This document shows positions 15,035 to 63,200 of a stretch of DNA of 64,000 nucleotides, in pieces. The stretch is taken from contig JBDZVA010000002.1 in NCBI GenBank assembly GCA_040255465.1, positions 346,373-410,372 on the forward strand. Reading direction: 5' to 3'. Positions within the stretch are counted from its first letter, which is position 1. Each line of letters opens with the position of its first letter. The notes under the pieces are model-generated. The model worked only from the letters and a program-made list of their open reading frames with translations. It made no database searches and was not told the origin of the DNA. Position numbers and translations under genes: made by a program. Origin of the DNA: Planctomycetaceae bacterium (GTDB lineage Bacteria; Planctomycetota; Phycisphaerae; Phycisphaerales; UBA5793).

Positions 15035-15040
15035 TCTCAA

Positions 15041-24626: not shown

Positions 24627-24646
24627 TGGTCTGGTTGATTGGGGTG

Positions 24647-24746
24647 CCACACAGCACTTCGCTTCGAATGCGGTGTGCAGACGAGCAAGTGCTGTCATCT
24701 TGTCTTGCACATCCGGCACACAGCACCCGAGGCGGGATGCGGTGTG
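24647..24746 (+). repeat. Two tandem related hairpins in the nadA-fpg spacer
   Basis: 24647-24677 reads CCACACAGCAC-N12-GCGGTGTG and 24716-24746 reads GCACACAGCAC-N12-GCGGTGTG. The outer arms GGGTGCCACAC (24642-24652) and GTGTGGCACCC (24742-24752) are also complementary. Confidence 0.4.
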
Positions 24747-24779
24747 GCACCCAGACCTTGACATGTTCACTGCGATCAA

Positions 24780-25688: not shown

Positions 25689-25716
25689 GCAGCCACGCTG
25701 AACGATACGATGTCGC

Positions 25717-35123: not shown

Positions 35124-35139
35124 GCGTGTCCCAATGCTC

Positions 35140-38100: not shown

Positions 38101-38847
38101 CAGGCTCAGGTTGCGGCAGGTCGTGGATGAATGCACGAGCGTCGTGAGCATCGTGGTGCGGATGTTTGAGACCAGGTCGGCGAACATCTTGCTGAATCTG
38201 GCTGCCGCTTCACCCAGTCGGGCGCGGCTGGGGAGATGAGCTTCGATCGTGGTGCCTTGCGCCACGATGCCTTCGGCTCCCGCGAGCTGGACGGAGATGC
38301 CGGCGCGATCTTCGGGCTCGTCGGCGATGACGAGATTCGTCGCGTTGATCCACTCGGAGTGGTCAACTTGTTCAAGCACAGAGCGAAGCAATGCGACATC
38401 GGGTTCGAAGACAATGATCAGCCCTGTCTTGCGCATGGCCTGGGCGATTCGCTGGATGTGATAGCCCATGGCAAAGCCGAGCACGACGACGGTCGCATGC
38501 TGGACGATGTCGATCCCTTTTGCGAACCGATCCGCCTCATCGAGCGGTCGGTGTCGGCTGCACAATTGTGATCCGTGAAGCGAGAGAGCCGGAACCCCCT
38601 GCGGGGTCGGTGCGAACGCGCATAGCGTGGATGGGGCGATGGTTCGGATTCGCTCCACAAGCCGGGCGTTGTGCGGAGCGAGAGCCTTGAGATTGGCTTC
38701 GAGGATTGCTGTACTCACTCCACCCGCCACTTCGCTTGAGGGTCGTTTCCGGTTTCGGCATCGGTCTTGCTGTGGTATTATCGGAATCAAATCGCCGGAG
38801 ACTTGAGCCATGGATCTGCCAAGCGGCTCGCCGCTGATCGTGAACAC
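35140..38847 (-). CDS. Multidomain Maf-like (DUF115/MptE-like) putative nonulosonic-acid transferase fused to nucleotidyltransferase-like and radical-SAM-like (Cys-less) modules
   Basis: The N-terminal third (ILEANLKALAPHNARL..., ALLLSAGPSLS, IIAVQTCLRPLLRRGIRPHFVTALDYHE, VLVGQDLGF) matches the motility-accessory-factor/MptE-like pattern. A coiled-coil linker follows. Residues about 720-930 look like a GT-A/cytidylyltransferase-like fold (RRIAAMIAID..., IVLLVPRG). The C-terminus has radical-SAM-barrel-like strands (ITFGGRGDPLLHP, AIHVRTDL, VISVEVHG), but TTRRSTEPFWSPA occupies the place of CxxxCxxC. The start (38847 or 38811) is uncertain. Confidence 0.7.
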   Translation of the reverse strand: MFTISGEPLGRSMAQVSGDLIPIIPQQDRCRNRKRPSSEVAGGVSTAILEANLKALAPHNARLVERIRTIAPSTLCAFAPTPQGVPALSLHGSQLCSRHRPLDEADRFAKGIDIVQHATVVVLGFAMGYHIQRIAQAMRKTGLIIVFEPDVALLRSVLEQVDHSEWINATNLVIADEPEDRAGISVQLAGAEGIVAQGTTIEAHLPSRARLGEAAARFSKMFADLVSNIRTTMLTTLVHSSTTCRNLSLNLDHYAAGEGIALLKNIASGRTALLLSAGPSLSRHYELLADPTLRERVVIIAVQTCLRPLLRRGIRPHFVTALDYHEISRQFYDGLDPEELRDITLVCEAKVNRIVVESYPGPIRCVANNFLDKLLGPLAREMGSVPAGSTVAHLSFYLAQYLGCDPIVLVGQDLGFTDNLYYGPGAAIHDQWAPEINAFNTIDMMEWSRVARMKRNLRPARSQSGRPMLVDEQMSTYLTQFERDFCNAPQTIIDAAGGGVAKQHTIVRPLDEVLAEAASTPLPEFATERRRLDADRLRQTSRRLESVRSDVQRLEKVSRDTDRILGEMLEHQHDGAAMNRLFQKIRANQKEVDRLAVLHDLVNLVNQLGVFKRLKADRKLDLSETLEPLARQKAQLERDQTNVRWLAEACLETQQILNEALRVLSGESVNTRISERAAAKTEHSQSADTGSTATGPRRIAAMIAIDPQRSGLLIDRPMNNRSSSWPLQATLERLGRCRRIESIVLLVPRGSDIQSFLDQSRIDRPLVVREVVGPIFDDAHRAVAAARRWSDWSWRGGIGGMTVFDEIIAPSHMAAAMDELHLDAVVVVGPDWPLVDWSDATGCGALIARYLEHPEIHRLVFTQAPPGLCGVLIEASLMREMSQRVRQFTVGSMLSYIPSLPQLDPTSKDACVKLPAEIRNHIGRYIADTSTIARAFESIGKDPCGLELLAALNAIPTAADGLPQQIEIELTTRRSTEPFWSPAINPQVDIDIDVARRFLREAVSRSDLAITFGGRGDPLLHPQFEEILRFAREVGCAAIHVRTDLPDAFGDPTRVLLLPIDVISVEVHGETAPTYQTVMGIDRFDELRQRVDSLINGRSARAGNPNALVTPWIVPRLMRCEATLDEQRNFIDRWMHYAGAAMVDPVPSSAIDNSIQLDPPPAALDEMNRRILQVRANGAAFVGHHAWLQPDDQAIVDLDSQSLAEVWASLQAGVTRVSEIDDRDTPTLILELGAV

Positions 38848-39418: not shown

Positions 39419-42010
39419 CTACTTCTCGGGGGTTTCTTCCTGAAGAGGATCCGGAGCGAGGGGATCCGGCGTGTTGAAGTAGGCGCGGGCGTCCTGGGCG
39501 ATGGCGCGGAGTTGCGGATTGTCGCTTCGAAGCGAGGCTTCGAGCACCACGTCCGCGTCGCTGGCAGAGCGGGCTGCGATCCAGGCCATCTGAACGAGTG
39601 GATCGGTCGAGCGTCGAGCCACGGCCTCGAACTGGTCCAGCACAGCGATGCGACTGGTGCTCGTGTCCTTTTGGAAGGGCAGCGACAGGATGGCCCATGC
39701 GGCCGTCTTCGCATCGAGTTCGGGCCAGAGTTCGATCAGGCGGTTCATGCCGGCGTCCATCGCGGCCATTAGTTCGGGGTTGGCGGCGGGATCGATCATG
39801 CGAGTGAGACGGGCGTGCAGCAGGGCGCCGATCTTTGAGATTGTCTGAACAGTCGTTGCGGAGTCCTGAGCGGAGAGCTGACCGGCGAGATCCGGGGTGG
39901 CGCCGTCGAGCAGCCCGGGCCACGCAGAAACCTGCATTGGTTTGGATTGGCGGACGATGCTCCACGATTGGGGTCGGAATCTGCCGTCCGACCCGACGTC
40001 GTAATCGAGCATGGCCTGGAACTGCACACTCAGTGGGCGCAGGGCGAAATTCGGAATCAGCAGACCGAAGAGCGTGTGATCGATGGAGATCGGCACGGTC
40101 ATCTCTTCGGCGGGCATGAGCATGAGGCGGCGCTCAAGATCGAGCGTGAGCGGGCGGGTGCCGGTGGGCAGTCGCTTGCCGCCAATCTGGAAGATCGGAA
40201 ACACGGCGAGCCGGCTGGGAAGGATCTTTTCGGCGTCGATCGCGACGGGCCAGGGACCGTCGTTACGCACCGTCACATCGAACGTGATCGCGTCGAGCGG
40301 TTCGGTCCGTTCGGTGCGGGGGGCGATCGAGAGGCTGAAGTACCGCTCTGGTCGCATGAGCAGGTCGCTGAGCGTTTGCGGGAAGCGATCGAGTTCCTTT
40401 TCGACGGCGCGAGCCTGGCGCGGGGCAGGCATCGGCTTTCCCGTCAGTTTCTCGTACTTCCACTTGCACAGGATCCCCACGAGTTTGCCCGGCTGACCCT
40501 GGTAGATTTCTCCAAGCAATCGCGTGGCGTCGGCTGTGCGACCGAGTTCGAGTTGAGCGGTTGCGACACCCAGATCGCTCAGCGGATCGACGGCCTGGAG
40601 GGACTGAAGGCCGGCGATGGCGGCTTGCGCATCGCCCTGACGCAGGCTGAGCCAGGAACGAAGGCGCTGCAGTTCGGCGGGATCGTGGTTGCCGCTCCTG
40701 TCGAGTTCGAGGACGTCGGCCGCGGCCTGCTCGACATGCCGATTGACCCACAACCGCGTCCACGCCCGATCCGCAATGATGCGGCGCTGGTCAGCGTTCA
40801 TCGCATTGATGGCTGAGACGGGCAGCGAAGTGCGATCGGTGCTCTTCAACTCCTGGAGTTGCGAATCCCAGATGCGTTCGAGGGACGCCAGAGAGCTTTC
40901 GACATCGTTTTCCGATTCAGCCGCCATGGCGAGCAGCAGGCGGGTGATCTGCAGATGAATTGAGAGGTCCACGGAGACGTCTTCAAACGTCGGCATCTCG
41001 CCGATCTGCGGGGTCGGGAGACCCTCATCGGCAGCCTTCTTCAGGGCTGCCTGTTGCTGGGCAATCCACTCCTGCTGTCGCCGCCGCCTCTCGAAACGGT
41101 CAAATGAGTCCTGCCGTTTTTTGATGAGATCGAGGCCGTCTCGCGGGCCCGACTCGGCGCAACGAAGGTAGGCGTAGTCGGCGAAGAGATCGTCGGGGAT
41201 GCTGGATTGATGTCGAGCGGCTTGAGCGCTCAGCCCTTCGATCAGGTCGGCGGCCCCGCGCTGGAAGCCGGATTCCTGAACCACCGCGATCAGATCGTTC
41301 AGCGCGGCTTCGTTGACGGGATCGGCCTTGACCAGCTGCATCATGGCGCGAACGAGCAGTTCGACCTTGGCGGTTTGACGATCGGTTTCCAGGGCGTTGA
41401 GGGCTGCGGCGTCGAGGTTCACCGGGTTGCGTTTGAGTGCTTCCTCGAGGTAGGAGGAGGCCACGCTGGCGCGCCCCTGCTCCTCAGCCAGGATCGCGGC
41501 GCGGTAGGCGACGTGGCTGAGAACTTCAGGCATGAGACGAGCGCCGGCGGCTGAGCGCAGAAGCCGCTCACAGAGATCGAGGCGCTCAGTGACGCTCTGA
41601 CGCTCGTCGATGGCGCGGCTGATGACGTTTAACTGGGCCGTGGCGTTGTCGGGTTCGAGGCGGAGCAGATTCCGTTCCGCCTGGATGATCATGGGCAGGC
41701 TGGAATCGAGAACCGCGCCGGCGGCGGCCAGTCTGCGGTGGATTTCGACGTCATCCGGAGCGAGTTCGGCGGCCCACTCCAGAATGCCTACGGCCGCCCG
41801 GTATCCCGCCTGCGGATCCGCCTCGGGCCCGGGGCGGGCGAACCGAAGGGTGTGCTGGACCAGTCTCCGGGCGATGAGTTGATCAAGGGAATAGGTCTCC
41901 GCCGTGGCGACGGCCGCCGCGTCTGATGAGACGGAGCCCGGGCTGGCGGTGGCGACGAGGGTGCCGAGGGAGAGCAGGGCGACGAGCAGTCGAATCATGG
42001 TGTCTTTCAC
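39419..42010 (-). CDS. Large secreted helical-repeat (TPR-like) protein
   Basis: Signal peptide (MIRLLVALLSLGTLVATASP). The N-terminal two-thirds are Ala/Leu-rich helical repeats, and the C-terminal third looks beta-rich. No catalytic motif was recognised. Confidence 0.6.
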   Translation of the reverse strand: MKDTMIRLLVALLSLGTLVATASPGSVSSDAAAVATAETYSLDQLIARRLVQHTLRFARPGPEADPQAGYRAAVGILEWAAELAPDDVEIHRRLAAAGAVLDSSLPMIIQAERNLLRLEPDNATAQLNVISRAIDERQSVTERLDLCERLLRSAAGARLMPEVLSHVAYRAAILAEEQGRASVASSYLEEALKRNPVNLDAAALNALETDRQTAKVELLVRAMMQLVKADPVNEAALNDLIAVVQESGFQRGAADLIEGLSAQAARHQSSIPDDLFADYAYLRCAESGPRDGLDLIKKRQDSFDRFERRRRQQEWIAQQQAALKKAADEGLPTPQIGEMPTFEDVSVDLSIHLQITRLLLAMAAESENDVESSLASLERIWDSQLQELKSTDRTSLPVSAINAMNADQRRIIADRAWTRLWVNRHVEQAAADVLELDRSGNHDPAELQRLRSWLSLRQGDAQAAIAGLQSLQAVDPLSDLGVATAQLELGRTADATRLLGEIYQGQPGKLVGILCKWKYEKLTGKPMPAPRQARAVEKELDRFPQTLSDLLMRPERYFSLSIAPRTERTEPLDAITFDVTVRNDGPWPVAIDAEKILPSRLAVFPIFQIGGKRLPTGTRPLTLDLERRLMLMPAEEMTVPISIDHTLFGLLIPNFALRPLSVQFQAMLDYDVGSDGRFRPQSWSIVRQSKPMQVSAWPGLLDGATPDLAGQLSAQDSATTVQTISKIGALLHARLTRMIDPAANPELMAAMDAGMNRLIELWPELDAKTAAWAILSLPFQKDTSTSRIAVLDQFEAVARRSTDPLVQMAWIAARSASDADVVLEASLRSDNPQLRAIAQDARAYFNTPDPLAPDPLQEETPEK

Positions 42011-42238
42011 ATCGGACGCCGGGGGGCGGTCACGTCAGCGGGCGGATCTGAAAGGGGTTACAAAATGGCGCTGGACCGGGTCGGCGATGCTAGGAACGCG
42101 GCTGGGCGATTCCATGAACAGAAGAGATTGAGGATTGACCATCTCAAGGAGCAATCGTAGCGTAAGGTTCGATGTTGCCAGCGATTGAGCCTGGCCGAGC
42201 CGGGCGGCCACACGCCCAGAATTCGCGGAGATTCCAGC

Positions 42239-43321
42239 ATGCACGCTTCCCGGCGACGAACGTCGACCCTCCTCGCCTTCCTGCTGATGGTTCTGGGTGC
42301 AGGTCCGCTGGCCCTGGCCCAATTGCCCCCGGACGTCTTCAACACGCCCCGACCGCTGACATCGCAGCAGGTGGCGGCGCTCAAGGACTTCGTGCAGAAG
42401 AATCTCGCCGGCCTCAAGTCAAAGGACAGTCGCGCGCTGGCTGACGCCCGGCGGTCGCTGCTCGATCCGGTGCGTCGGGACACCTCCCGGACCTTCCGCA
42501 TGGCGTACAACGATGCGCTGACGCCGGGATTGACGGTGCTGGCCAATGACGAGCAGGCGGAGATGGCCAATCGCCAGGCGGCGATCTGGATTCTCGGGGC
42601 GGTGGCGAGCGATGATTCTGATGCGGCGCTGCGAAATGTTCTGGGATCCAAGGTGCCGGCGCTGCGCTATGCGGCGGCGACTGGACTTGAACGGTCGATG
42701 CAGGCCAACCGTCTGGACCGCAACGCTTACTCGAACGCGATGCAGAGCGAAAAGAACGTCGCTCGATTCCTGCGTGATGCGCTGGAAACGGAAACGGACG
42801 CCGAAGTCTTGCGCGCCCTGCTTTCCGCCGCCGCGGCGCTTCCGACAGCCGCCAACGCGCTGGACACGATCAGTGACGGGCTTGTGGCCCAGGCGCGTCG
42901 ACTCAAGGATGCGGACTCCGTCGCGTGCCTCAATTCCATGCGGATCGGTCTTGAGCGGATGCAGAAGCGCTACGTCGTGGACACCGTGGGCGGGCCGGCC
43001 ATCGCGCCGCACGAGCACAAGATGATCGAGGCGGCGGCCAGCGCGCTGCTGCTGGTTGTGCGCCACGGCAAGGCGGACAAGATCACCGACGCCAGCCGGG
43101 ACACCTATTCGAATCTCACACGCACGAGCGAAAACCTGCTGAGCCTGCTGTGCAAGCGAGACAGCGCTCAAACGCGTGTTTCCAACGCCGTGGCCGCCGG
43201 TCGCTACGACGACGCCGACGCGGCGCTCAAATCGACATGGCTCGCGGGTGATGGCCCCATCTATTCGAACCGGGTGTGGGAGTTTGAGGCCGGGTCGATC
43301 GAGGCAGCGTTCAACCGCTGA
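42239..43321 (+). CDS. Secreted HEAT/armadillo-like repeat protein
   Basis: Signal peptide (STLLAFLLMVLGAGPLALAQ) followed by repeated helical units (ANRQAAIWILGAV, VPALRYAAATGLE, VLRALLSAAAAL). The listed ORF starts at 42185. Confidence 0.55.
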   Translation: MHASRRRTSTLLAFLLMVLGAGPLALAQLPPDVFNTPRPLTSQQVAALKDFVQKNLAGLKSKDSRALADARRSLLDPVRRDTSRTFRMAYNDALTPGLTVLANDEQAEMANRQAAIWILGAVASDDSDAALRNVLGSKVPALRYAAATGLERSMQANRLDRNAYSNAMQSEKNVARFLRDALETETDAEVLRALLSAAAALPTAANALDTISDGLVAQARRLKDADSVACLNSMRIGLERMQKRYVVDTVGGPAIAPHEHKMIEAAASALLLVVRHGKADKITDASRDTYSNLTRTSENLLSLLCKRDSAQTRVSNAVAAGRYDDADAALKSTWLAGDGPIYSNRVWEFEAGSIEAAFNR

Positions 43322-49263: not shown

Positions 49264-50694
49264 ATGAACGAACCGCACCGGAGCGTCGTGGTTGACCAGG
49301 TGAACTGGAGCGGCATCCTGCTCATCAGCCGCATCCCCAGGGCTCTGGCGCTGTCGTTTCAGCCCAGTCGGGTCATCATGGGATTTGTCATTGTCGTGAT
49401 GCTCATGGCGTCAGGGACGATCTGGGACGGGTTGGCTGGAAAACAGGTAGGGCCGGGCGGTCTTGGTTCGCCGCCGATGGCCGATCCGGCGCTGCGTGAC
49501 GATCTTCGACTGCTCCTCGCCGACCCGGCACTGATCCGGACCGATCGCGCCGAGGCGATCAGAAGCGCCGAGGTATTGAGCGCAGCCAATGTGCGGGCCG
49601 CAGTGCTCGAAACCTACCGTGAGAAGTCGCTGGAGGATCAACAGCGTGATCGCGTGGTCGTTGCCGAGGCCCTGGCTCGCTTGAAGCTGGTCGCCCCCAA
49701 GGGTGTGTTTGAGGCGACGGCGGAGGCGGTTGTGGCGCGGTGTCACGGCGTGCTCAACGCGGCTCTGCACCTGAACCTCGGCGGCATCGCGGACGAGCTG
49801 GCGGCCGCTGCACGGATGATCGGGATCCTTCTCCATGAATATCTGCTCTTCACGATCGTGTTCGGGCTGTGGACTCTGGTCATCGGCATGATTGGCGTCG
49901 CGACGATCTCGCGCACCGCCGCGTGCCAGTTTGCGATCGAGCAATACATTACCTGGACGACGGCGCTGGCGTATGCCCTGAAGCGGTGGATTCCCGTTCT
50001 GGGCACGATCGGACTGCCGCTTGTGGCGCTGGCGCTGGGCGCGATCGCATTGGCGGTGGGCGGGTTACTGCTCGCCGTACCGGGGCTCAATGTCATCGGC
50101 GGTGTGCTCTATGGGCTCGCTCTCTTTGGCGGAACGATTGCGGCGTGTCTGATCCTGCTCACGCTGCTCGCCTCGGCGCTGTTCATACCGGCGGTGGCGG
50201 TGGAGTCGGCGGATGCGCCCGACGCGCTGGCTCGCGGGTTCTCATTTGTGCGCAACCGACCACTGCACTGGATCGTGTACGTGATTGCGGCGTTTATTCA
50301 AGGTGTGTTCGGTCTTCTTATCGTCACGCTTGTGGCGTCGCTGGCGCTGAATTTCACGGCGTGGGGTGCGAGTTTGTTTGTGACCTCTCCCGCCGTCGAG
50401 GCCGTGGGCGGAGGGGCCAGCATCGATCACCTGCTGCCGCTCAGCGAGGGGTGGTCGCTCTCGGGTACGCAGCGCATCACGGGCGGTCTTCTCGTGTTGT
50501 GGCGAACGGTGGTCGGCGGTATGGTGGCGGGTTGGGTGGGGTCGTATTTCGCTTGCGCGACCACGGTGCTCTATTTCCTGATGCGCAAAGCGACGGACGA
50601 CCAGGATCTCGAGGAAATCTGGCAGCCGGGCTTGATCGAGGGGACGATGGCGCCGGGCCGGGCTTCGGTCGTGGACGCCGGCGAAGCGTCCTGA
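49264..50694 (+). CDS. Hypothetical polytopic membrane protein
   Basis: At least six long hydrophobic segments follow a soluble helical region of about 130 aa. No motif was recognised. Confidence 0.6.
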   Translation: MNEPHRSVVVDQVNWSGILLISRIPRALALSFQPSRVIMGFVIVVMLMASGTIWDGLAGKQVGPGGLGSPPMADPALRDDLRLLLADPALIRTDRAEAIRSAEVLSAANVRAAVLETYREKSLEDQQRDRVVVAEALARLKLVAPKGVFEATAEAVVARCHGVLNAALHLNLGGIADELAAAARMIGILLHEYLLFTIVFGLWTLVIGMIGVATISRTAACQFAIEQYITWTTALAYALKRWIPVLGTIGLPLVALALGAIALAVGGLLLAVPGLNVIGGVLYGLALFGGTIAACLILLTLLASALFIPAVAVESADAPDALARGFSFVRNRPLHWIVYVIAAFIQGVFGLLIVTLVASLALNFTAWGASLFVTSPAVEAVGGGASIDHLLPLSEGWSLSGTQRITGGLLVLWRTVVGGMVAGWVGSYFACATTVLYFLMRKATDDQDLEEIWQPGLIEGTMAPGRASVVDAGEAS

Positions 50695-50749
50695 GACGGC
50701 GGACATGGTTCTGCGGATGACTGGTGGAATCGGCCGATACCATCAGTCC

Positions 50750-52588
50750 ATGCCAGACTCTTCTGTTCACGCCGCCGGTCCGTTTACGCTCGCTCATGTC
50801 ACGCACGAAGCCGTCGAAAAGATGGGCGGCATCGGCACCGTGCTCGAAGGCATGATGACCAGCGCGGTGTACCAGTCGGCGGTTCGGCGGTCGATCCTCA
50901 TCGGCCCCATGGGTGGGCATCACTTTGAGAGCCCGCTGCGGCGGCTTGGGCCGCATGTGAATGTCCGGTACAGCAGCGCGGACAACATCGACTTTGACGG
51001 GCTGGGTCGCAAGTTCCACCCGATCCAGTGGGCCTTTGGGGTGCACATCGCCTACGGCATCCGCTCGTACGAGAAGAATGGCTACGACCGCGACGGCAGC
51101 GCCGAGGTGTTGCTCATTGATGTGTCGAATCCGAATCGCGAGCAACTGGCGATCTTCAAGATGCGGCTGTGGGATGAGTTCGGCATCGATGCGCGGCGCT
51201 ACGAGCACGACTGGGGTTTTGAGGAATACTGCCGCCTGGCTGAGCCCGCGTTCTATGCGCTTTCCGCCATTGTTCCTTCTGATGAACTGCCATGCATTAT
51301 CCTGAGTCATGAGTTCATGGGAATTTGCACGGCGCTCAAGTCAGTGATGGACGGCGGCGACGCCTTTCGCACCATCTTCCACGCCCACGAGTGCGCTACG
51401 GCGCGGCGCCTGACCGAGCATCACCCGGGCCACGACACCGCGTTTTACAACATGATGCGCCAAGGGGCGGCTAAGGGTCTGTACGTCGAGGATGTGTTCG
51501 GCGATCAGTCGAACTTCATGCGGCACGCGCTCATTTCCAGAGCGCATGAACTGGACGCGATCATCGCCGTGGGCGACCCGACGGCCGAGGAGATGCGATT
51601 TCTCAATCCCGAAACCAGGCACGGGCGCGTGAACCTTGTCTACAACGGACTGCCCGCCTTCAACAGCGACTACGAGCAGGAGACGCAAAGCCGCCGACTC
51701 ATGGACGAGTGGGCCGAGCGTGTCATCGGGTATCGGCCTGATGTTCTGATGACGCACGTGGCGCGTCCTGTGATCAGCAAGGGGTTCTGGCGCGACCTCA
51801 AAGTCTGTTCGTATCTTGATGGAATGCTCGGAACCGAAGGAAGAACGGGGTTGCTGGTGATTCTCACCTGCGGCGCGCCGCCGCGCGGGCTCAATGAGGT
51901 GAACCGGATGGCCCGGGAATACGGATGGCCCTGGCAGCACCGCGAGGGGTATCCCGACCTCGCCGGCCCGGAGCTCGAACTCTTCCAACTCATCAAGCAG
52001 TTCAATGTCGGGCACACGAGTCTCAAGGTGATGCTGGTCAACCAGTTTGGCTGGAGTCGCGAAACGCTGGGCGACGCCGCAGCTGAGGAGATGAGCTTTG
52101 CCACCCTTCGGCAGGCGGCGGATGTGGAGTTTGGCCAGTCGGTGTATGAGCCGTTTGGGATTGCGCAGTTTGAGCCGCTGGGCAGCGGAGCGATCTGCGT
52201 CGCCAGCTCGGTGTGCGGCTGCGTCACCTCGTACCAGCACGTACTCACGCGGCTCGGCGAGGCGGCGATCGCCTTCGAGAACGTCATCGTCGCGGACTAC
52301 ACCAAGCTCGACCGCCCCATGACAATGGATGAACTGCGCGCGATGACCCAGCAGCAGCGCGACAAACTGGAGGATCGCGTGGCCCGGGAGGTCGCAACGG
52401 AACTGCACCGCCGACTCCCGCGCAGCGAGGCCGACGCGAAACGGCTGCTCGAAACGGGACGTGAACTGGCGGACGGCATGAGCTGGGACACGGTGATGGC
52501 CGAGGGCATGATCCCGCTGCTGACGCAGGTGGCGGCCCGGATTCGGGAGCAAGCCGCCAGTCCCGCTGCCGCTCAGCCGGCGCTATGA
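50750..52588 (+). CDS. Glycosyltransferase resembling eukaryotic-type (GT3-like) glycogen synthase
   Basis: The N-terminus HVTHEAVEKMGGIGTVLEGM parallels the GT3 E(V/C)ANKVGGIYTV motif. SHEFMGICTALK parallels the HEW-type segment. The C-terminal GQSVYEPFGIAQFEPLGSGAICVAS is the GT-B E-x7-E region. The listed ORF starts at 50705. Confidence 0.65.
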   Translation: MPDSSVHAAGPFTLAHVTHEAVEKMGGIGTVLEGMMTSAVYQSAVRRSILIGPMGGHHFESPLRRLGPHVNVRYSSADNIDFDGLGRKFHPIQWAFGVHIAYGIRSYEKNGYDRDGSAEVLLIDVSNPNREQLAIFKMRLWDEFGIDARRYEHDWGFEEYCRLAEPAFYALSAIVPSDELPCIILSHEFMGICTALKSVMDGGDAFRTIFHAHECATARRLTEHHPGHDTAFYNMMRQGAAKGLYVEDVFGDQSNFMRHALISRAHELDAIIAVGDPTAEEMRFLNPETRHGRVNLVYNGLPAFNSDYEQETQSRRLMDEWAERVIGYRPDVLMTHVARPVISKGFWRDLKVCSYLDGMLGTEGRTGLLVILTCGAPPRGLNEVNRMAREYGWPWQHREGYPDLAGPELELFQLIKQFNVGHTSLKVMLVNQFGWSRETLGDAAAEEMSFATLRQAADVEFGQSVYEPFGIAQFEPLGSGAICVASSVCGCVTSYQHVLTRLGEAAIAFENVIVADYTKLDRPMTMDELRAMTQQQRDKLEDRVAREVATELHRRLPRSEADAKRLLETGRELADGMSWDTVMAEGMIPLLTQVAARIREQAASPAAAQPAL

Positions 52589-56893: not shown

Positions 56894-58267
56894 TCAGTCG
56901 AATAAGTGATCGAGTATCACATCGCGGACTGCGGTGCAGGGGAGTTCATCCTCGCTGGTTCCGCTGTGCTGCGTTATTACCACGGGTTTGTGCTCCGGTG
57001 ACTGATCGATTCGGCCATGTGAGCCGCGGACAAGGCGTGTGTCGAGGGGGATGACGTCAAAAAGGGTGCGGTGGCCGAGTTTCTTTTTGAGCAGCGTCCA
57101 ACCGAGGCGGAGTTTGGGCCAGGCGATGGCGGGATCGATGAAGAGTTCGAGCGGGTCGTAGCCGGGCTTGCGGTGAATGTCGACGGTGCGGGCGAAGTCC
57201 GGTGCACAGCGATCATCGAGCCAGTAGTCGTAACTGAACCAGCGGCGCGAGGCGGCGACGAGGGTTAGTTCGCCGGCTCGCGGATGATCGATGCCGAGTT
57301 GCTGTTGGCCGGAGCGGTCGAGGACTTGATCGACGCCCGGCGTCTGCTCGCATGTCCGGCGCACCTGCTCCGCAATTGACGCATCATTGATGTACACGTG
57401 CGCGATCTGGTGATCGGCCACGGCGAAGGCGCGACTCGCGCCGGCGTCGAGCAGTTCGCGGCCGTTCTCCTCGCGGACCTTCAGCCAGCCTGCTTGGCGC
57501 AATACGCGGTTGATGTGGACGGCATCATCGACGGGCTCGATGCCGTATTCGCTCAGCAGCATAACGCGAACTTCGCGCTGTGCGAAGAAGTCGATCAGTT
57601 CGCCCACCAACGCGTCGATGTCGCGCAACTCTGCCGGGATCGAGGCGTGGTCGGGTCCCACTTTTTGCAGTGCATAGTCAAGATGCGGGAGGTAGACGAG
57701 TGTGAGTGTGGGATTGTGTTTCTCCCAGACGCGTTGCGTCGCCTTTGCGATCCACCGGCTCGATTCGATTGAGGCCCCGGGCCCCCAGAAGGAGAAGAGC
57801 GGGAACGGTCCCAGTTCGTGCTGGAGCATGTCGCGAAGATCGGCGGGCTGGCTGTAGCAGTCGGGGATCTTCTGCCCATCGGCGCGATACTGCGGGCGCG
57901 GCGTGACGGAGTAATCGGCGCTCGAGTACATGTTGAACCACCAGAACATGTTGGCGCAGGTGACGGAGGGGTCGCGCTGCCGGGCCGTTTCCCACACCTT
58001 TTCTCCCGCGACGAGTCGGTTCGACTGCTTCCAGAACTGCACTTCACATTGCGTGCGGTCGTACCAGCCGTTGCCGACGATCCCGTGCTCGCGTGGAGGC
58101 AGGCCGGTGAGCATGCTCGACTGCACGCTGCACGTCACGGCGGGGAGTACGGGGTTGAGACGCTGGATCCGTCCGGCCCTGGCAAAGGCGGCGATGCGCG
58201 GCGTGTGCGGCCCGATGAGCGACGACGAGAGGCCGACGATGTTGATGACTGCCGTGGCGTGGGCCAT
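56894..58267 (-). CDS. eboF: Alkaline-phosphatase-superfamily nucleotide pyrophosphatase/phosphodiesterase, EboF-type
   Basis: VINIVGLS..., LPAVTCSVQSSMLTGLPPREHGIVGNGW (nucleophile Thr context), YLPHLDY and LSEYG. It is the last gene of the ebo-type cluster. An alternative start is at 58297. Confidence 0.8.
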   Translation of the reverse strand: MAHATAVINIVGLSSSLIGPHTPRIAAFARAGRIQRLNPVLPAVTCSVQSSMLTGLPPREHGIVGNGWYDRTQCEVQFWKQSNRLVAGEKVWETARQRDPSVTCANMFWWFNMYSSADYSVTPRPQYRADGQKIPDCYSQPADLRDMLQHELGPFPLFSFWGPGASIESSRWIAKATQRVWEKHNPTLTLVYLPHLDYALQKVGPDHASIPAELRDIDALVGELIDFFAQREVRVMLLSEYGIEPVDDAVHINRVLRQAGWLKVREENGRELLDAGASRAFAVADHQIAHVYINDASIAEQVRRTCEQTPGVDQVLDRSGQQQLGIDHPRAGELTLVAASRRWFSYDYWLDDRCAPDFARTVDIHRKPGYDPLELFIDPAIAWPKLRLGWTLLKKKLGHRTLFDVIPLDTRLVRGSHGRIDQSPEHKPVVITQHSGTSEDELPCTAVRDVILDHLFD

Positions 58268-58268
58268 C

Positions 58269-59138
58269 TCAGGTTCCTGCGATCCACTTCTGACCAATCA
58301 GCGTGACGGCGAAACAGGCTCCGGCTGCGAGCGCCGCCTCGGGCTGGTCGAGCCGCGTGAGATGGTACAGATCCAGCAAGGCAATTCCCGCGATCCAACC
58401 TGCGACGGCGCGGCCAAGGTGGCGCTGGGGCTGCTGCACATACATCGCCACGCCGAGCGTCCAGATGAGAAACATGCCGCGCCCGATGATGGTCAGCCAC
58501 GCCGGTGCGTTACTGGGTACGAACTCGCCGAAGACGACTGCGAACATCGGCAGCAGGACGATGATCGACTCGAATCGCATGCGCTCACTGCTCGCTTCGC
58601 CCCGAGCCACAAGTGAGAAGAGCAGCACGTACGCCGTGAGCGCCGTCGCCAGGAGCGGCAGGGCACCCCATTGCGGCGACCAGCCCGCGGCCAGCGCTGC
58701 CGTGACGTAGACCAGCGCGCGGCAAAGACCCATGAGGAGGACCGAGGCGGCGGTGCGCGCGTGAATGATGTTGTAGAGGATGATGGCGATCATGAGGACG
58801 AAGCCGTAGCCCACCGTCATCCAGCCGCGCATCGCAAGCAATCCGAGTGCAGCCGCGAAGCACGCAATCACGAGGATTGCAGCAGCAGATCGCGAGATGT
58901 CTCCCGAGGGGATCGGCCGAGCCGGCCGCTCGCGACGATCGACCTCCACATCCATCACATCATTGAGGGCCATGCCGCCGACGTAGAGCAGAAGCATGGC
59001 GAACGTGGTCGGCACGATGCCGGTCCATGATCCGTCGGCATGAGCGTTCAGTCCGATCGCCCAGCCGACAAGGACGTTGCTCAGGATCGTCGGGGCGTTG
59101 GAGAGGCGCATCAGTTCCAGCCAGGGGCGGACGGTCAT
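58269..59138 (-). CDS. eboC: UbiA-family aromatic prenyltransferase, EboC-type
   Basis: A polytopic protein with LNDVMDVEVDRRERPARPIPSG (the NDxxDxxxD first Asp-rich motif). The start ATG (59138) overlaps the eboE stop as ATGA. The listed ORF starts at 59189. Confidence 0.85.
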   Translation of the reverse strand: MTVRPWLELMRLSNAPTILSNVLVGWAIGLNAHADGSWTGIVPTTFAMLLLYVGGMALNDVMDVEVDRRERPARPIPSGDISRSAAAILVIACFAAALGLLAMRGWMTVGYGFVLMIAIILYNIIHARTAASVLLMGLCRALVYVTAALAAGWSPQWGALPLLATALTAYVLLFSLVARGEASSERMRFESIIVLLPMFAVVFGEFVPSNAPAWLTIIGRGMFLIWTLGVAMYVQQPQRHLGRAVAGWIAGIALLDLYHLTRLDQPEAALAAGACFAVTLIGQKWIAGT

Positions 59139-60334
59139 GTTGGCCCCTCGCATGCGATGTCCAGGCGCGCGAGTTCGGCACGCAGCCACTCGATTTCCCC
59201 CGCGATGCCGCTGGCGATGGACGGCGGACGTTGCGGCTCAGGCAGGACCCCCCACGTGTAGGTTTCGATTTCCAAATCGCGAGCGCCGTGGGTGGGGAGG
59301 TGCTGCAGGCACTCGGTGATGGCGGACTGGGTCGTGCCGAGTGATCCGATGTGGGCGCGGCTGATGGGAACGTGGTAGTGGATACGCCAGTGTTCTTCAT
59401 GCGCAGTCGGTGTCTGGGACAGGGCTGCTGGTAGATCTTCGAGAAACAACTGCTCGCCATTTCGCATGATACCCGTCTGGTGCAGATAGCGATCTTCGGC
59501 GAAGGGGTGAAGCGCATCGAGAACCCGTCGGCGCTGACGTTCATCCGCTGGCACTCGAATATCAATGGCGCTGGAGACCTGCACCTTTCCAATTGTGACT
59601 CCCGCTGCGGCATAGCGATCGAGCGCTTCGTACTGCGACTCGAACATCACAGCGGCGTGGCAGACGTCGTGGCACACGCGAATGTGTCGGCGGATGATGC
59701 GCTCCTCAGCTTCGCTGACGTCGCGCAGCAGGTGATTCAGGTAGAAGTTGCAGAGCTGGCCGCTTGTCGAGAGAATGCAGCCGGGCTCGGGTTCGATGTC
59801 GAGGTGAATCAGACGCCCGGTCTCGGCGGCCAGATGATTCAATTCGCGCGCCGTCGTGCGGAGTTGCATGATCGCAGTCGCATGGTCCACGGCATCACAG
59901 GGCGGACCTGGCCAACCTAGCGGCAGTGTGGAGATGCCGGCGTGCTCGCCTTCATCCACAAGGGCGACGAGAATGCGGGCCAGGCTGAGTGTGAAATCCA
60001 ATCGGCGCTCGTCCGCCCATGAAGGCTTGTAGACGCGATGCTTGACGACCGGGCCGTGGAAGTCACCGTACGGAAAGCCGTTGATGGTGAAGATGCGCAG
60101 GTAGTGCGCATCGAGCCAATCCCTGAAGGAAGTGATGGCAGCGGGGGAGTCGAGTTCTGCCGCGGCATCGGCCGAGAGCCAGAGGCCGATGTTCAGGCGA
60201 TCTTGCGGAGCCACGAGGTTGCGAATGGCCGTGGCGTGCTTCTGAAGTTGCGCCTTGGTTTCAGCCAGTGTTCGCCCGGCGTGCACGTTTGTGCAGTAGC
60301 CGATCCGGCAGTGGTGGGACACTTCAGCGCTCAT
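59135..60334 (-). CDS. eboE: Xylose-isomerase-like TIM-barrel protein, EboE-type
   Basis: [10 protein letters not shown]..., [17 protein letters not shown] and HLDIEPEPG are collinear with the proteins annotated as metabolite traffic protein EboE. The gene context also supports the call. Confidence 0.8.
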
Positions 60335-61133
60335 TGACCCTGAACTTCGGCGATTGGCTCAGGAACGTCTGAGGATTCTCGAGTGAAACGCGTCGCACCA
60401 GATCCTCGGTGTGGCCGCGGCGACGGAGTTCCACCTGGCACTTGGGCACGGCGAGCGGGTCGCTGACGCCCCAGTCGCCCGCGGAATTGATCCAGATGCG
60501 CTCGGTGCCGTACATCTCGAAGATGTCCGCGGCTCGCTGCGGCGTGCATTTGGTGTCGGGATAGAGCGTCATCCCCGCCCAGAAGCCGGCGTCGAGCACC
60601 ATCTTGACGGTATGTTCTTCGACGTGGTCGATCAGCACGCGACCGGGATCGATGCGACCGTTGCGCCTGATCGCATCCATGATGAGTCGCGTGCCTTTGC
60701 GCTTGTCTTCGAGGTGCGGGGTGTGGACGAGGATGAGTTGGTCGCGCTGGGCCGCAAACTCGACGTGGGCTTCGAAGATCTCCAGTTCATTGCGGCTGTT
60801 TTTGTTCAGGCCGATTTCGCCGATGCCCAGCACGTTTGGGCGATCGAGAAAGTCGGGGATGAGCGACATCACTTCGCGGGCGAAGCCGGGGTCTTCGGCC
60901 TCCTTGGGATTGATGCACAGCCAGGTGAAGTGGCGGATGCCAAATTGAGCGGCGCGATTCGGTTCGGACTCGGTCAGCTGCCGGAAGTAGTCGTAGAAGC
61001 CCTTGGGGCTGGAGCGATCAAAGCCCGCCCAGAAAGCAGGTTCGGTAATGGCGAGGCAGCCGGCCTGCGCCATGCGCTGGTAGTCGTCGGTCGTGCGCGA
61101 GACCATGTGGATATGCGGGTCGATGTAGGTCAT
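60324..61133 (-). CDS. eboB: TatD-related metal-dependent hydrolase, EboB-type
   Basis: [10 protein letters not shown] (HxH), GIGEIGL, LVHTPH and IDH are amidohydrolase/TatD metal ligand positions. It overlaps the upstream small ORF by 4 nt and eboE by 11 nt. Confidence 0.85.
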
Positions 61134-61447
61134 TTCGCAGCCGCCTTGTCACCGGGGTAGACGCCGAAGGCGCCCTTCATGCCTGCCGCCGATTCGATGG
61201 GGACTTCGCTGGGATCGCTGAAGTGATCCAGGACGCGCCTGGCCCGCTGGCCCTGCCCGTCGAGCAGCAGCGCAATCGACTGCTTGAGCGCGGCGACGCG
61301 GAAGTCTTCGTGGCCGATGTCATCGGCCGCGCGGTCGAGTCGATCGAGAAACGCGGCCAGATCGAGCACCTTGGCGCGATGCTCCATGAAGTAAAGTTCG
61401 ATCACTTTCGAACGTGATGCCGGGCAGGATGGCGTTGCCGTGGCCAT
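61130..61447 (-). CDS. Small hypothetical protein in the eboA position
   Basis: A 105-aa ORF, translationally coupled to eboB (ATGA). No motif was recognised. Equivalence to EboA is inferred from position only. Confidence 0.4.
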
Positions 61448-61491
61448 ACGCTCCTCCTCTCTGAATCGAGCACAAAGGCTGCAGATGTACT

Positions 61492-62745
61492 CTACGACTG
61501 TCGCGCGGCGGCCGCCTCGTCACGGAGTCGATTGATGGCCCGAGTGATCACCTCTTGGTCCATTGTGTGGACGTCGAAGGCGTTGCCGATTCCGCGGAGC
61601 ATAGCGAGGGTCAGTTGCCCGCCCAGGTGTTCGCGGAATTCTTCGAGGCCGCCAAGCAGTTCGCTGGTGCGGCTGAGATCATCGTGCCAGGTTGGCAGGC
61701 CCAATCCGCGGAGGCCAGTCAGTATGCGCTCTCGATCGGATTCGCTCAGCCAGCCTTGCAGCGTGGAGTACGTTGTGTCGAGCGCGATTCCGATGCTGAC
61801 GGCCTCGCCGTGACGCAGATCGAAGTCGGTCATCTGTTCGAGCTTGTGCGCGGCCCAGTGACCAAAGTCTAGTGGGCGAGCCGCGGTGAGTTCGAATGGA
61901 TCGCCGCCCTGGACGATGTGCTTCAGATGCCATTCTGCGGAGCGGCGGATGATGGCGGTCGTGGTGTCGAGATCGCGAGCGACGAGTCGTGCGCTCGCAT
62001 TGCAGATGTCGTCAAACAGTGTGGCGTCCTTGACGAGCGCCACCTTGACACACTCGCTCAAGCCGCTGCGCCAGTCGCGATCGGCAAGCGTGGTGAGCAG
62101 GCTGGAGTCGTTGATAACGGCCCAGGGAGGCGTGAAGGTGCCAAGGAAGTTCTTCTTGCCGAACGCGTTGATGCCGTTCTTGACGCCGACGCCGGAGTCG
62201 TCCTGAGCGAGGACGGTACTGGGCATTCGGACGAGTCGAACGCCGCGATGGGCGACGGCCGCGGCAAAGCCGACGACGTCGAGCACCGCGCCGCCTCCAA
62301 TGACGAGTACATACGAGCGCCGACAGAGTCCGGCTCTGTTGATCTCGCTGGTGATTTGCTCAAAAACTGCGCGGTCGTTCTTGGCGCGCTCGCCGCCGGG
62401 AATGGCGATGAGTTCGCCTGTCAGTTCGAGTCGATCGCTGGTCGACTTGGCGTAGTGGCGGATGCTGTCGCTGATGCGCGGAGCTGCGTTCAGGATGCCG
62501 TCATCGATGACGACGAGAACGCGGGCGGGCGCCCCATCGGTCTCGATGACATCGCGCAGGACGCGGTTTTGCGGCTCAAACGCATGGCTGGTGAACCGGA
62601 GACGAAAACGCCAGCCGACAGAGAACCGGGCATCAATGCCGTCTGGTCGGCGGTCGTATTCGGCATGGGCGACGTGGCCCGAAGGATCGGACAAGGGCGA
62701 GGCTTCCTCATTGGGGCGGGCGCGGGAGGTGTTTGGTACGATCAT
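61492..62745 (-). CDS. eboD: 3-Dehydroquinate-synthase-family sugar phosphate cyclase, EboD-type
   Basis: GGERAKN, VIGGGAVLDVVGFAAA, the QDDSGVGVKNGIN context and HGEAVSIG fit the DHQS/sugar-phosphate-cyclase fold. The start is chosen at MIVPNTS (62745); the ORF is open to 62835. Confidence 0.85.
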   Translation of the reverse strand: MIVPNTSRARPNEEASPLSDPSGHVAHAEYDRRPDGIDARFSVGWRFRLRFTSHAFEPQNRVLRDVIETDGAPARVLVVIDDGILNAAPRISDSIRHYAKSTSDRLELTGELIAIPGGERAKNDRAVFEQITSEINRAGLCRRSYVLVIGGGAVLDVVGFAAAVAHRGVRLVRMPSTVLAQDDSGVGVKNGINAFGKKNFLGTFTPPWAVINDSSLLTTLADRDWRSGLSECVKVALVKDATLFDDICNASARLVARDLDTTTAIIRRSAEWHLKHIVQGGDPFELTAARPLDFGHWAAHKLEQMTDFDLRHGEAVSIGIALDTTYSTLQGWLSESDRERILTGLRGLGLPTWHDDLSRTSELLGGLEEFREHLGGQLTLAMLRGIGNAFDVHTMDQEVITRAINRLRDEAAAARQS

Positions 62746-62893
62746 CGAACGATAGGCCTCGGCCTTCTGTGCCCCGCTGCCGCCCCGTCTTTTCAGGCGC
62801 CCCCCGAGGTGAATGTCGTCCTGGCGGCAGACCATTGCACGGGAGCCCGGAGCCGCTGCCCGGCCCGGTGCTGGCTGCGCCGGCGCAGGGCAA

Positions 62894-62966
<73 letters not shown>

Positions 62967-63200
62967 AATCAACCGGGCCGTGCCGGTTGACCGAGCCCAA
63001 GCGTACCGATCCGCCGCGTCGGGTCAAGTGGGGTGGGCTACCATCCGCTTGACTGATTCTGGTGTCTGAACTACCTTTGGGGACGTGTTTTTGCCGCTCG
63101 GACACAGCGGCGGGCCGGTCGGCCACGTGCGTCTGCGGGCCTGGATCGGCCTGTACCCCAGCCATACCCACTTTCTCTGATCTTTGCGAGGCCTTCGGTC

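What the first reader, a model, noticed from the sequence alone, without database searches (positions are those of the whole stretch)
56894..62745. Complete, translationally coupled six-gene ebo cluster (eboD-A-B-E-C-F order) next to tRNA-Lys
Six consecutive minus-strand genes match the composition of the ebo cluster. They are a DHQS-like sugar phosphate cyclase, a small ORF, a TatD-like hydrolase, a xylose-isomerase-like TIM barrel, a UbiA prenyltransferase and an alkaline-phosphatase-family pyrophosphatase. The ebo cluster was first noted in eustigmatophyte plastids and many bacteria, and was later implicated in moving a scytonemin precursor to the periplasm in Nostoc punctiforme. The chemical product, presumably a prenylated cyclitol-type lipid carrier, is still undefined. 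Here the junctions are ATGA overlaps or gaps of 1-44 nt, which argues for a single operon. No scytonemin genes are nearby, so the cluster must serve another pathway in this organism.
Basis: partly seen in the sequence, partly recalled or inferred. Interest (0 to 1): 0.7.

Follow-up and report, generated by a model that had tools for sequence, protein, structure and literature searches.

The report
eboG-type ebo operon in Phycisphaerales
This is a real, tightly packed six-gene "ebo" operon in a Phycisphaerales (Planctomycetota) bacterium, but its small gene is EboG rather than EboA, and recent work links ebo genes to making the seaweed growth signal thallusin, so it is a new member of a known system.

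Summary
Six co-oriented minus-strand genes at 56894-62745 encode a DHQS-like cyclase, a 105-aa protein, a TatD-like hydrolase, EboE, a UbiA prenyltransferase and a phosphodiesterase-family protein. Their junctions are -4, -11, -4, +1 and +44 nt, and tRNA-Lys(CTT) lies just upstream.

Two parts of the interpretation need correcting.

1. The small ORF is not EboA. It has no similarity to EboA (BLASTP E=44; hhalign probability 0.1%; no hit to NCBIfam EboA models). It is 39% identical (E=6e-14) to the protein at the same position in a Deinococcus D-x-B-E-C-F cluster. That arrangement is the DGBECF "eboG" variant described by Yurchenko et al. (2016). The window's EboB also falls on the eboG side of the EboB split.

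2. The product is no longer undefined. [quoted passage not shown] EboC farnesylates hydroxyquinaldic acids (2022). A May 2026 preprint ties eboB/C/E/F to thallusin biosynthesis.

The new elements are modest. The operon is compact in Phycisphaerales, whereas the literature describes planctomycete ebo genes as scattered. EboG always directly precedes eboB in the loci examined and also occurs fused to a GAF domain. No eboG-type cluster has been tested chemically.

The parts
61492..62745 (-). eboD: DHQS-like sugar phosphate cyclase (417 aa from the conserved ATG; a 447-aa ORF is possible from 62835)
   Evidence: NF004852/PRK06203 scores 543 bits (cut-off 333). aroB TIGR01357 scores 214 bits, below its cut-off of 305. 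The best solved relative is the sugar phosphate cyclase 4p53, not a DHQS. It is 44-54% identical to the DHQS-like genes inside about 60 other ebo clusters. The start at 62745 is conserved in L001, while 62835 is ATA there.
61130..61447 (-). eboG (not eboA): 105-aa protein predicted as a three-helix bundle with a disordered conserved tail
   Evidence: GGAGGAG lies 5 nt upstream of the start, and its stop overlaps the eboB start as ATGA. It is 39% identical (E=6e-14) to the protein at the same slot in the Deinococcus sp. QL22 D-x-B-E-C-F cluster. It shows no similarity to EboA. The word-indexed search found 525 homologues, and the exhaustive profile search found 1055 representatives at 50% identity. 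Against L001 there are 22 synonymous and 6 non-synonymous codon differences. The AF2 model has helices at 12-39, 49-62 and 68-76, with mean pLDDT 77.
60324..61133 (-). eboB: TatD-like metal-dependent hydrolase-fold protein (269 aa)
   Evidence: PF01026 scores 30.9 bits (cut-off 27). It is 58-65% identical to the EboB of eboG-type clusters and 41-49% identical to those of eboA-type clusters. A neighbour-joining tree shows a clean eboG-type versus eboA-type split. It is 99% and 97% identical in protein to L001 and L002, although 18% and 34% of codons carry synonymous changes.
59135..60334 (-). eboE: xylose-isomerase-like TIM-barrel protein (399 aa)
   Evidence: NF035939 TIM_EboE equivalog scores 433 bits (cut-off 250) and aligns full length, 11-385 of the protein to 1-379 of the model.
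58269..59138 (-). eboC: membrane UbiA-family prenyltransferase (289 aa)
   Evidence: PF01040 scores 77.7 bits. The best NCBIfam model is EboC NF035940, at 95 bits, below its cut-off of 250. The cluster-encoded EboC of Deinococcus and Mycetohabitans score similarly (107 and 112 bits). The motif LNDxxDxxxDxxERPxRP is kept in all 11 EboC sequences aligned, with PSG following in 9 of them including the window.
56894..58267 (-). eboF: alkaline-phosphatase-superfamily phosphodiesterase/pyrophosphatase (457 aa)
   Evidence: PF01663 scores 219.6 bits. It is 51-63% identical to the EboF of other ebo clusters.
62746..62892 (-). Leader between tRNA-Lys and eboD, with a conserved block just before the start codon
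   Evidence: The block CAGCGGGGCAC-GAAGGCCGAGGCCTATCGT is near-invariant between the window and L001. No Rfam family, sigma-70-like promoter or above-chance terminator was found here.
62893..62967 (-). tRNA-Lys(CTT): a same-strand upstream neighbour, not part of the pathway
   Evidence: Found by ARAGORN and by Rfam at 70.3 bits. It is present at the same place in L001 but was not found in L002 or in other eboG-type loci.

Best explanation
This is the eboG-type (DGBECF) variant of the ebo operon in a Phycisphaerales bacterium, expressed as one translationally coupled unit. It most likely makes a cyclitol-derived, farnesylated quinoline meroterpenoid of the saccharoquinoline/thallusin type.

Proposed steps:
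1. [quoted passage not shown] This is reported for EboD homologues and inferred here.
2. The soluble enzymes EboB (TatD fold), EboE (TIM barrel) and EboF (phosphodiesterase family) convert that cyclitol plus L-aspartate into a hydroxylated quinaldic acid. The genes are genetically required in Stieleria, but the individual reactions are unknown.
3. The membrane enzyme EboC attaches farnesyl from FPP and may also cyclise it. Farnesylation is shown in vitro for eboA-type, planctomycete and actinomycete homologues, and inferred here.
4. EboG takes the place of EboA as a small cytosolic accessory protein. I propose that it works with EboB. This is my inference from gene position, translational coupling and co-segregation of sequences.
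For: Identity of the cluster:
- Family scores for all six proteins.
- The same six genes in the same order in Phycisphaerales/Planctomycetota MAGs, Ktedonobacteraceae and Deinococcus.
- Table S2 of PMC5133447 lists DGBECF for Deinococcus swuensis, DGBxECF for Herpetosiphon and CDGBEF for Acidobacteriaceae KBS 96. CDGBEF is the order I see in Acidobacteriota locus L021.

EboG rather than EboA. The EboB tree splits by eboG-type versus eboA-type, with the window on the eboG side. This reproduces the split reported in PMC5133447.

Single operon:
- Overlapping or abutting junctions that are conserved in relatives.
- No terminator excess: 4 found against 4.4 expected.

Functional genes: purifying selection on all six, and the EboC Asp-rich motif is intact.

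Pathway chemistry.

EboG partnering with EboB:
- EboG or GAF-EboG directly precedes eboB in all 14 eboG-type loci compared and in the further JGI contig.
- EboA likewise precedes eboB in ABCDEF-type clusters and in Mycetohabitans.
- EboB is the most constrained gene.
Against: - No eboG-type cluster is among the experimentally validated thallusin producers. Those were Bacteroidota, Saccharomonospora, Nostoc, Tranquillimonas, Pirellulales-type planctomycetes and Saltatorellus. The preprint never mentions eboG or Phycisphaerae.
- The thallusin link rests on a preprint, and the reactions of EboB, EboE and EboF are unassigned.
- EboC scores below NCBI's EboC equivalog cut-off (95 versus 250 bits).
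- I could not retrieve the reference EboG accessions of Yurchenko et al. (for example WP_052195592) for direct alignment. The EboG label therefore rests on position, genus-level arrangement and family membership.
- Transcription was not measured.
Confidence: 0.6

Rival explanations
1. The eboG-type operon makes a different end product from the eboA-type operon. It would be some other prenylated cyclitol- or quinoline-type metabolite rather than thallusin, with EboG (versus EboA) acting at or directing the diverging step.
For: - EboA and EboG are mutually exclusive and unrelated.
- EboB, and largely EboC, split along the same line.
- Yurchenko et al. raised this possibility explicitly.
- No eboG-type carrier has been tested for thallusin.
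Against: - The five enzymes are orthologous across both types: EboD 44-54%, EboF 51-63% and EboB 41-49% identity to eboA-type clusters.
- The EboC catalytic motif is identical in both types.
- Planctomycete producers reported to lack a detectable eboA still make thallusin, so eboA does not appear to be essential for that product.
Confidence: 0.22
2. The cluster makes a prenylated lipid carrier that moves other metabolites across the inner membrane. This is the 'metabolite traffic' model and the first reader's reading.
For: - In Nostoc punctiforme every ebo deletion leaves the scytonemin monomer trapped in the cytoplasm (PMC6282210).
- NCBI still names EboE a 'metabolite traffic protein'.
- EboC is an integral membrane prenyltransferase.
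Against: - There are no scytonemin genes or any recurring cargo pathway next to the 14 eboG-type clusters examined.
- N. punctiforme itself secretes thallusin, and the preprint attributes the scytonemin effect to indirect causes.
- EboC homologues prefer hydroxyquinaldic acids with FPP and yield a small soluble meroterpenoid, not a long-chain carrier.
Confidence: 0.12
3. The six genes are a chance or merely syntenic juxtaposition of a true AroB with unrelated hydrolases and a UbiA enzyme, with no shared pathway.
For: NCBI's model PRK06203 is named '3-dehydroquinate synthase', and the TatD_DNase Pfam hit is weak.
Against: - aroB TIGR01357 is below its cut-off.
- The same six families recur together across at least six lineages named in the record titles (Planctomycetota, Chloroflexota, Deinococcota, Acidobacteriota, Rhodothermales, Bacteroidota) in unrelated genomic neighbourhoods.
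- They are the only recurrent families around eboG-type loci.
- The junctions overlap.
Confidence: 0.01

Closest known systems
eboG-type ebo operon, DGBECF arrangement (Deinococcus swuensis; DGBxECF in Herpetosiphon; CDGBEF in Acidobacteriaceae KBS 96) - Yurchenko et al. 2016, PMC5133447
   Same: Same six families in the same order. A short, unannotatable protein lies between eboD and eboB. EboA is absent. EboB groups with the eboG-type sequences.
   Different: The host is a Phycisphaerales planctomycete, a group not sampled in that study. The three planctomycetes they analysed carried eboA and unclustered genes. The Phycisphaerales proteins form their own branch in every tree.
Thallusin biosynthetic ebo genes (Maribacter eboABCDEF; scattered eboB/C/E/F in Stieleria maiorica Mal15) - bioRxiv 10.64898/2026.05.21.724671
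   Same: The core genes eboB, C, E and F plus eboD are all present. The EboC catalytic motif is conserved. The host belongs to the same phylum as the genetically tested Stieleria.
   Different: Here the genes form one compact operon, whereas the preprint states that planctomycete ebo genes are unclustered. EboG is present, and the preprint does not consider it. Product formation is untested for any eboG-type cluster.
Cyanobacterial ebo cluster associated with scytonemin (Nostoc punctiforme Npun_F5232-5236) - Klicki et al. 2018, PMC6282210
   Same: Homologous eboB, C, E and F, with an eboD nearby. All are annotated with the same families.
   Different: The Nostoc cluster is eboA-type, lies next to or is co-regulated with scy genes, and is UV-A induced. 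The window has no scy genes and carries EboG instead of EboA.
EDB cluster of Pseudomonas fluorescens NZI7 (nematode repellence)
   Same: It has six ebo homologues, including the cyclase and the UbiA enzyme, which are needed for the phenotype (review PMC12904256).
   Different: It carries three additional genes, and its read-out is linked to indole/tryptophan catabolites. No extra conserved genes accompany the window's operon.

Membership tests
ebo operon (Yurchenko et al. 2016) | EboD: a DHQS-like sugar phosphate cyclase distinct from AroB | tested here: met
   PRK06203 scores 543 bits (cut-off 333), the same model that hits the Deinococcus ebo-cluster cyclase at 561 bits. aroB scores 214 bits, below its cut-off of 305. 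The top solved relative is the cyclase 4p53.
ebo operon (Yurchenko et al. 2016) | EboE: a dedicated TIM-barrel family | tested here: met
   NF035939 equivalog scores 433 bits (cut-off 250) over its full length.
ebo operon (Yurchenko et al. 2016) | EboC: a UbiA-superfamily enzyme of the EboC group | tested here: inconclusive
   The best NCBIfam hit is the EboC model, but at 95 bits against a cut-off of 250. Bona fide cluster-encoded EboC of Deinococcus and Mycetohabitans also score only 107 and 112 bits. The motif LNDxxDxxxDxxERPxRPxPSG is shared, and the protein groups with eboG-type EboC. It groups with cluster-encoded EboC but fails the curated equivalog threshold.
ebo operon (Yurchenko et al. 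2016) | EboB (TatD-like) and EboF (PF01663) present and co-oriented with the other genes | tested here: met
   PF01026 scores 30.9 bits and PF01663 scores 219.6 bits. EboB is 58-65% and EboF 51-63% identical to cluster-encoded homologues. The junctions overlap or abut.
eboA-type ebo operon (ABCDEF and derivatives) | Presence of EboA (NCBIfam EboA_domain NF035938 / EboA_family NF035937) | tested here: not met
   The small ORF has no NCBIfam hit at E up to 10, whereas the models score 149 and 141 bits on Mycetohabitans EboA. BLASTP gives E=44. hhalign of EboG against EboA profiles gives probability 0.1%. Canonical EboA proteins are 240-296 aa.
eboG-type ebo operon (DGBECF) | A short conserved protein (EboG) in place of EboA, next to eboB | tested here: met
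   It is 39% identical (E=6e-14) to the protein in the eboG slot of the Deinococcus sp. QL22 cluster. Homologues sit at the same slot in Ktedonobacteraceae, Rhodothermales and Acidobacteriota loci. Direct alignment to the published accessions was not possible.
eboG-type ebo operon (DGBECF) | EboB falls on the eboG side of the EboB tree bipartition | tested here: met
   The neighbour-joining tree of 21 EboB sequences separates all 9 eboG-type sequences, including the window, from all 12 eboA-type sequences.
Thallusin biosynthetic gene set (2026 preprint) | [quoted passage not shown] | tested here: met
   All four are present and intact, together with eboD.
Thallusin biosynthetic gene set (2026 preprint) | The organism produces thallusin or saccharoquinoline | not testable with these tools
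   This needs culture or heterologous expression with LC-HRMS and the Ulva bioassay. No eboG-type or Phycisphaerae strain appears among the tested strains.
Scytonemin-associated ebo cluster | scy genes adjacent or in the neighbourhood | tested here: not met
   Pfam scans of 51 of the 52 gene-like ORFs examined in the 64-kb window show housekeeping or unrelated functions only.

The most novel reading that the evidence does not exclude
EboG may be a dedicated partner or regulatory subunit of the TatD-like EboB that replaces EboA.

In some lineages it is fused to a free-Met-sulfoxide-reductase-like GAF domain, which would make the pathway sensitive to a ligand or to redox state. About 48 protein clusters carry this fusion. 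In each of the four contexts inspected, the fusion gene sits directly upstream of eboB.

eboG-type operons such as this one may therefore be regulated differently from eboA-type operons, or may yield a product other than thallusin.
Probability: 0.25. Interest if true: 0.6.

Novelty: new member of a known kind. Interest (0 to 1): 0.35.

Why it matters
The ebo genes have just been proposed as the long-sought basis of thallusin, a picomolar bacterial signal that shapes green seaweeds.

This locus shows that some planctomycetes (Phycisphaerales) carry the genes as one 5.9-kb, translationally coupled cassette. The literature generalises from Pirellulales that planctomycete ebo genes are scattered. 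A compact cassette is a convenient unit for heterologous expression.

The locus also draws attention to EboG, an uncharacterised small protein ignored in the recent functional work. It has 1055 representatives at 50% identity, always sits in front of eboB in the loci examined, and is sometimes fused to GAF. Testing an eboG-type operon would show whether thallusin potential really extends to Deinococcota, Chloroflexota, Rhodothermales, Acidobacteriota and Phycisphaerae, as genome mining assumes.

Tried and rejected
- **EboA assignment of the small ORF.** Rejected.
- **True AroB for the cyclase.** Rejected.
- **Direct retrieval of the published EboG accessions.** A search with the Deinococcus protein and a cluster look-up returned only unnamed or other Deinococcus entries.
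- **Literature search for 'eboG'.** Swamped by Ebola glycoprotein papers.
- **Apparent EboG-EboB fusion (P0148).** Rejected as a frameshift artefact, because every gene on that 1x-coverage contig is fragmented.
- **NadA (quinolinate synthase, 23355-24626) as a link to aspartate incorporation.** Not pursued. It lies 33 kb away among housekeeping genes, and no such gene recurs beside ebo clusters.
- **tRNA-Lys as an integration-site signature.** Rejected. The rpmF / tRNA-Lys / ebo / CxxCxxCC / nrdR / DUF4139 / nuoF context is syntenic in L001, and everything downstream of the operon is syntenic in L002. GC content matches the rest of the window.
- **Riboswitch, sigma-70 promoter and internal terminator scans.** Nothing above chance.
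- **Accessory genes co-varying with eboG-type clusters.** None recur across 14 loci.

Full report
**Observation.** The region 56894-62745 holds six consecutive minus-strand ORFs.

- Pfam and NCBIfam assign them to DHQ-synthase-like cyclase, no family, TatD-like hydrolase, EboE, UbiA prenyltransferase and type I phosphodiesterase/nucleotide pyrophosphatase.
- Read from the sequence, the junctions are as follows:
  - a 44-nt gap with a GGAGGAG ribosome-binding site,
  - an ATGA overlap,
  - an 11-nt overlap,
  - an ATGA overlap,
  - a 1-nt gap.
- tRNA-Lys(CTT) sits 147 nt upstream of the cyclase start on the same strand.
That ATG and a 30-nt block in front of it are conserved in the closest relative, whereas the upstream ATG at 62835 is ATA there.
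- Public contigs carrying an identical small protein were gene-called independently with the same boundaries for the other five genes.

**Whose genome.** A scan of species-representative genomes with the EboE protein found its nearest relatives in 'Phycisphaerales bacterium UBA5793' (83% identity) and a Planctomycetota MAG (70%). All other hits were at or below 41%.

- UBA5793 shares the whole context (rpmF, tRNA-Lys, the six genes, a CxxCxxCC protein, NrdR, a DUF4140/4139 protein and NuoF). The Planctomycetota MAG shares the six genes and everything downstream of them.
- The GC content of the operon equals that of the rest of the window.
- The cluster is therefore a stable chromosomal feature of this lineage, not a recent island.

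**The small ORF is EboG, not EboA.**

- Canonical EboA proteins upstream of eboB in Cytophagales, Rhodothermales and gammaproteobacterial loci, and in a Mycetohabitans plasmid, are 240-296 aa. The Mycetohabitans protein, the one scanned, hits NCBIfam EboA_domain and EboA_family at 149 and 141 bits.
- The window's 105-aa protein hits neither model, even at E=10. It has no BLASTP similarity to EboA (E=44). Profile-profile comparison gives probability 0.1%.
- It is instead 39% identical (E=6e-14) to the unannotated 112-aa protein between the cyclase and the TatD gene of a Deinococcus sp. QL22 plasmid. That cluster has the order D-x-B-E-C-F.
- It has positional homologues (37-43% identity) in Ktedonobacteraceae, Rhodothermales and Acidobacteriota loci.
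- Yurchenko et al. (PMC5133447) described this variant. In it eboA is absent and a short, poorly conserved 'eboG' clusters with the other genes. Their listed arrangements are DGBECF (Deinococcus swuensis), DGBxECF (Herpetosiphon), DGBXE//CF (Truepera) and CDGBEF (Acidobacteriaceae KBS 96).
- My Acidobacteriota locus shows C-D-x-B-E-F, and its EboC looks ABCDEF-like, as they reported for KBS 96.
- They also reported that the EboB tree splits eboA carriers from eboG carriers. My neighbour-joining tree reproduces that split and places the window with the eboG-type sequences.
- One caveat remains. I could not fetch their reference accessions for a direct alignment.

**The other five proteins.**

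- EboE passes NCBI's equivalog cut-off.
- The cyclase scores 543 bits on PRK06203, the model that also captures the Deinococcus cluster cyclase. It falls below the aroB cut-off, and its best solved relative is a sugar phosphate cyclase.
- EboC is below the curated EboC cut-off, but so are the cluster-encoded EboC proteins of Deinococcus and Mycetohabitans. That model evidently covers only the ABCDEF type. The Asp-rich LNDxxDxxxDxxERPxRP motif is kept in all eleven EboC sequences aligned, and the PSG that follows it in nine of them, including the window.
- All six genes are under purifying selection against two relatives. EboB is extreme, with 3 non-synonymous against 49 synonymous codon differences. 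That is tighter than NrdR or NuoF.

**Operon and neighbourhood.**

- Four more distant Phycisphaerales or Planctomycetota contigs carry the same D-G-B-E-C-F unit with equally tight junctions, in entirely different surroundings.
- I clustered all ORFs from 14 eboG-type loci. Only the six ebo families recur: G, B, E and C in 14/14, F in 13/14 and D in 11/14.
- Internal terminator-like sites do not exceed chance, and no Rfam element lies in the leader.
- The rest of the window is ordinary chromosome. It holds SMC, LpxB, NadA, methylmalonyl-CoA mutase, Nuo subunits, a nonulosonic-acid gene set and an oligopeptide transporter. There are no scytonemin genes.

**What it most likely does.**

- EboC homologues farnesylate 8-hydroxyquinaldic acid and related quinolines (PMC9235831).
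- A May 2026 preprint reports the following:
  - ebo genes are present in all 27 thallusin producers and absent from all 8 non-producers among the first 35 strains tested;
  - of three cyanobacteria tested separately, only the two ebo carriers (both Nostoc) secrete thallusin;
  - L-aspartate is incorporated into the quinoline core;
  - EboC from three phyla farnesylates 6,7,8-trihydroxyquinaldic acid ester;
  - single deletions of eboB, C, E or F in the planctomycete Stieleria maiorica abolish thallusin.
- By homology, the window's operon most likely makes the same kind of molecule.
- The enzyme families and gene organisation are shown here. The chemistry is inferred, and it rests on eboA-type or eboA-less systems. 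No eboG-type cluster has been tested, and the preprint does not mention eboG or Phycisphaerae.

**EboG itself.**

- The family is large. The word-indexed search found 525 hits, and the exhaustive profile search found 1055 representatives at 50% identity.
- It has no Pfam family, no PDB sequence relative and no Foldseek PDB match.
- AlphaFold predicts a three-helix bundle with a core pLDDT of about 90 or more, followed by a disordered tail. The tail carries the conserved AAGxKGAxG motif.
- About 48 protein clusters of roughly 250 aa fuse a GAF domain to EboG. That GAF domain is annotated by JGI as free methionine-(R)-sulfoxide reductase-like.
- In all four contexts inspected, the fusion gene sits directly upstream of eboB. 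Three of them have the order (GAF-G)-B-E-C-D-F, and the fourth is interrupted by an inserted island.
- I suggest that EboG and EboA are accessory partners of EboB, for three reasons:
  - EboG, like EboA, always directly precedes eboB and is usually translationally coupled to it.
  - EboB sequences segregate by partner type.
  - EboB is unusually constrained.
- This suggestion is an inference. An apparent direct EboG-EboB fusion proved to be a sequencing artefact.

**Verdict.**

- The finding is real and correctly recognised as an ebo cluster.
- It is mislabelled in one gene, and its functional context is outdated.
- It is a new member of a known kind, namely the DGBECF eboG-type operon.
- There are two modest points of novelty:
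  - The genes form a compact operon in a planctomycete class, whereas the literature describes planctomycete ebo genes as scattered.
  - The data focus attention on the neglected EboG protein.

Noticed in passing
L090:6001-6756; L092:8001-8894; L091:8001-8747; JGI 3300047160 contig (no DNA held): GAF-EboG fusion proteins recur: about 48 clusters at 90% identity, 240-297 aa. JGI annotates the GAF part as free Met-(R)-sulfoxide reductase-like. In the four contexts inspected the fusion gene sits directly upstream of eboB, in clusters ordered (GAF-G)-B-E-C-D-F. None of the ebo papers I read describes this.
   Followed up: partly
window 60324-61133 (eboB) versus L001 and L002: EboB is 99% and 97% identical in protein to two relatives, although 18% and 34% of its codons carry synonymous changes. 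It is more constrained than NrdR or NuoF in the same window, and far more than EboE or EboD.
   Followed up: partly
L085:13620-14114, L085:4695-7366; L092:6771-7949; JGI 3300047160 contig 14272-15576: Three single-locus neighbours might fill unassigned pathway steps. L085 has a VOC/glyoxalase-family gene right after eboF and two squalene-hopene-cyclase-like genes beside the operon. L092 has a bicupin divergent from GAF-eboG. The JGI contig has an aminotransferase right after eboF. None of these recurs across loci.
   Followed up: no
L091:9701-15212: In one GAF-eboG cluster, a roughly 4-kb stretch between eboE and eboC-eboD carries phage-like or defence-like genes: Phage_P4_cII, Beta_protein, Peptidase_M78 and an HTH protein.
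   Followed up: no
window 32211-38847: This is a nonulosonic (sialic-like) acid gene set. It holds UDP-GlcNAc 2-epimerase, NeuB, a CMP-sugar cytidylyltransferase and a 1235-aa protein with an MptE-like (DUF115/Maf-type) domain, all on the minus strand.
   Followed up: no
window about 22000-26000: GC skew changes sign from negative to positive, with the cumulative minimum near 24 kb. This suggests a replication origin or terminus, or a switch in gene-strand bias. NadA lies at 23355-24626.
   Followed up: no
window 62746-62790: A roughly 30-nt block immediately upstream of the eboD start (CAGCGGGGCAC-GAAGGCCGAGGCCTATCGT) is near-invariant between the window and L001, while the surrounding leader diverges. 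It may be a regulatory or ribosome-binding element.
   Followed up: no
window 49264-52588, 42185-43321, 39419-42010: Several large ORFs with gene-like codon bias (476, 627, 378 and 863 aa) have no Pfam family. The 627-aa ORF is conserved in L001 and L002, and the 476-aa ORF in L002.
   Followed up: no
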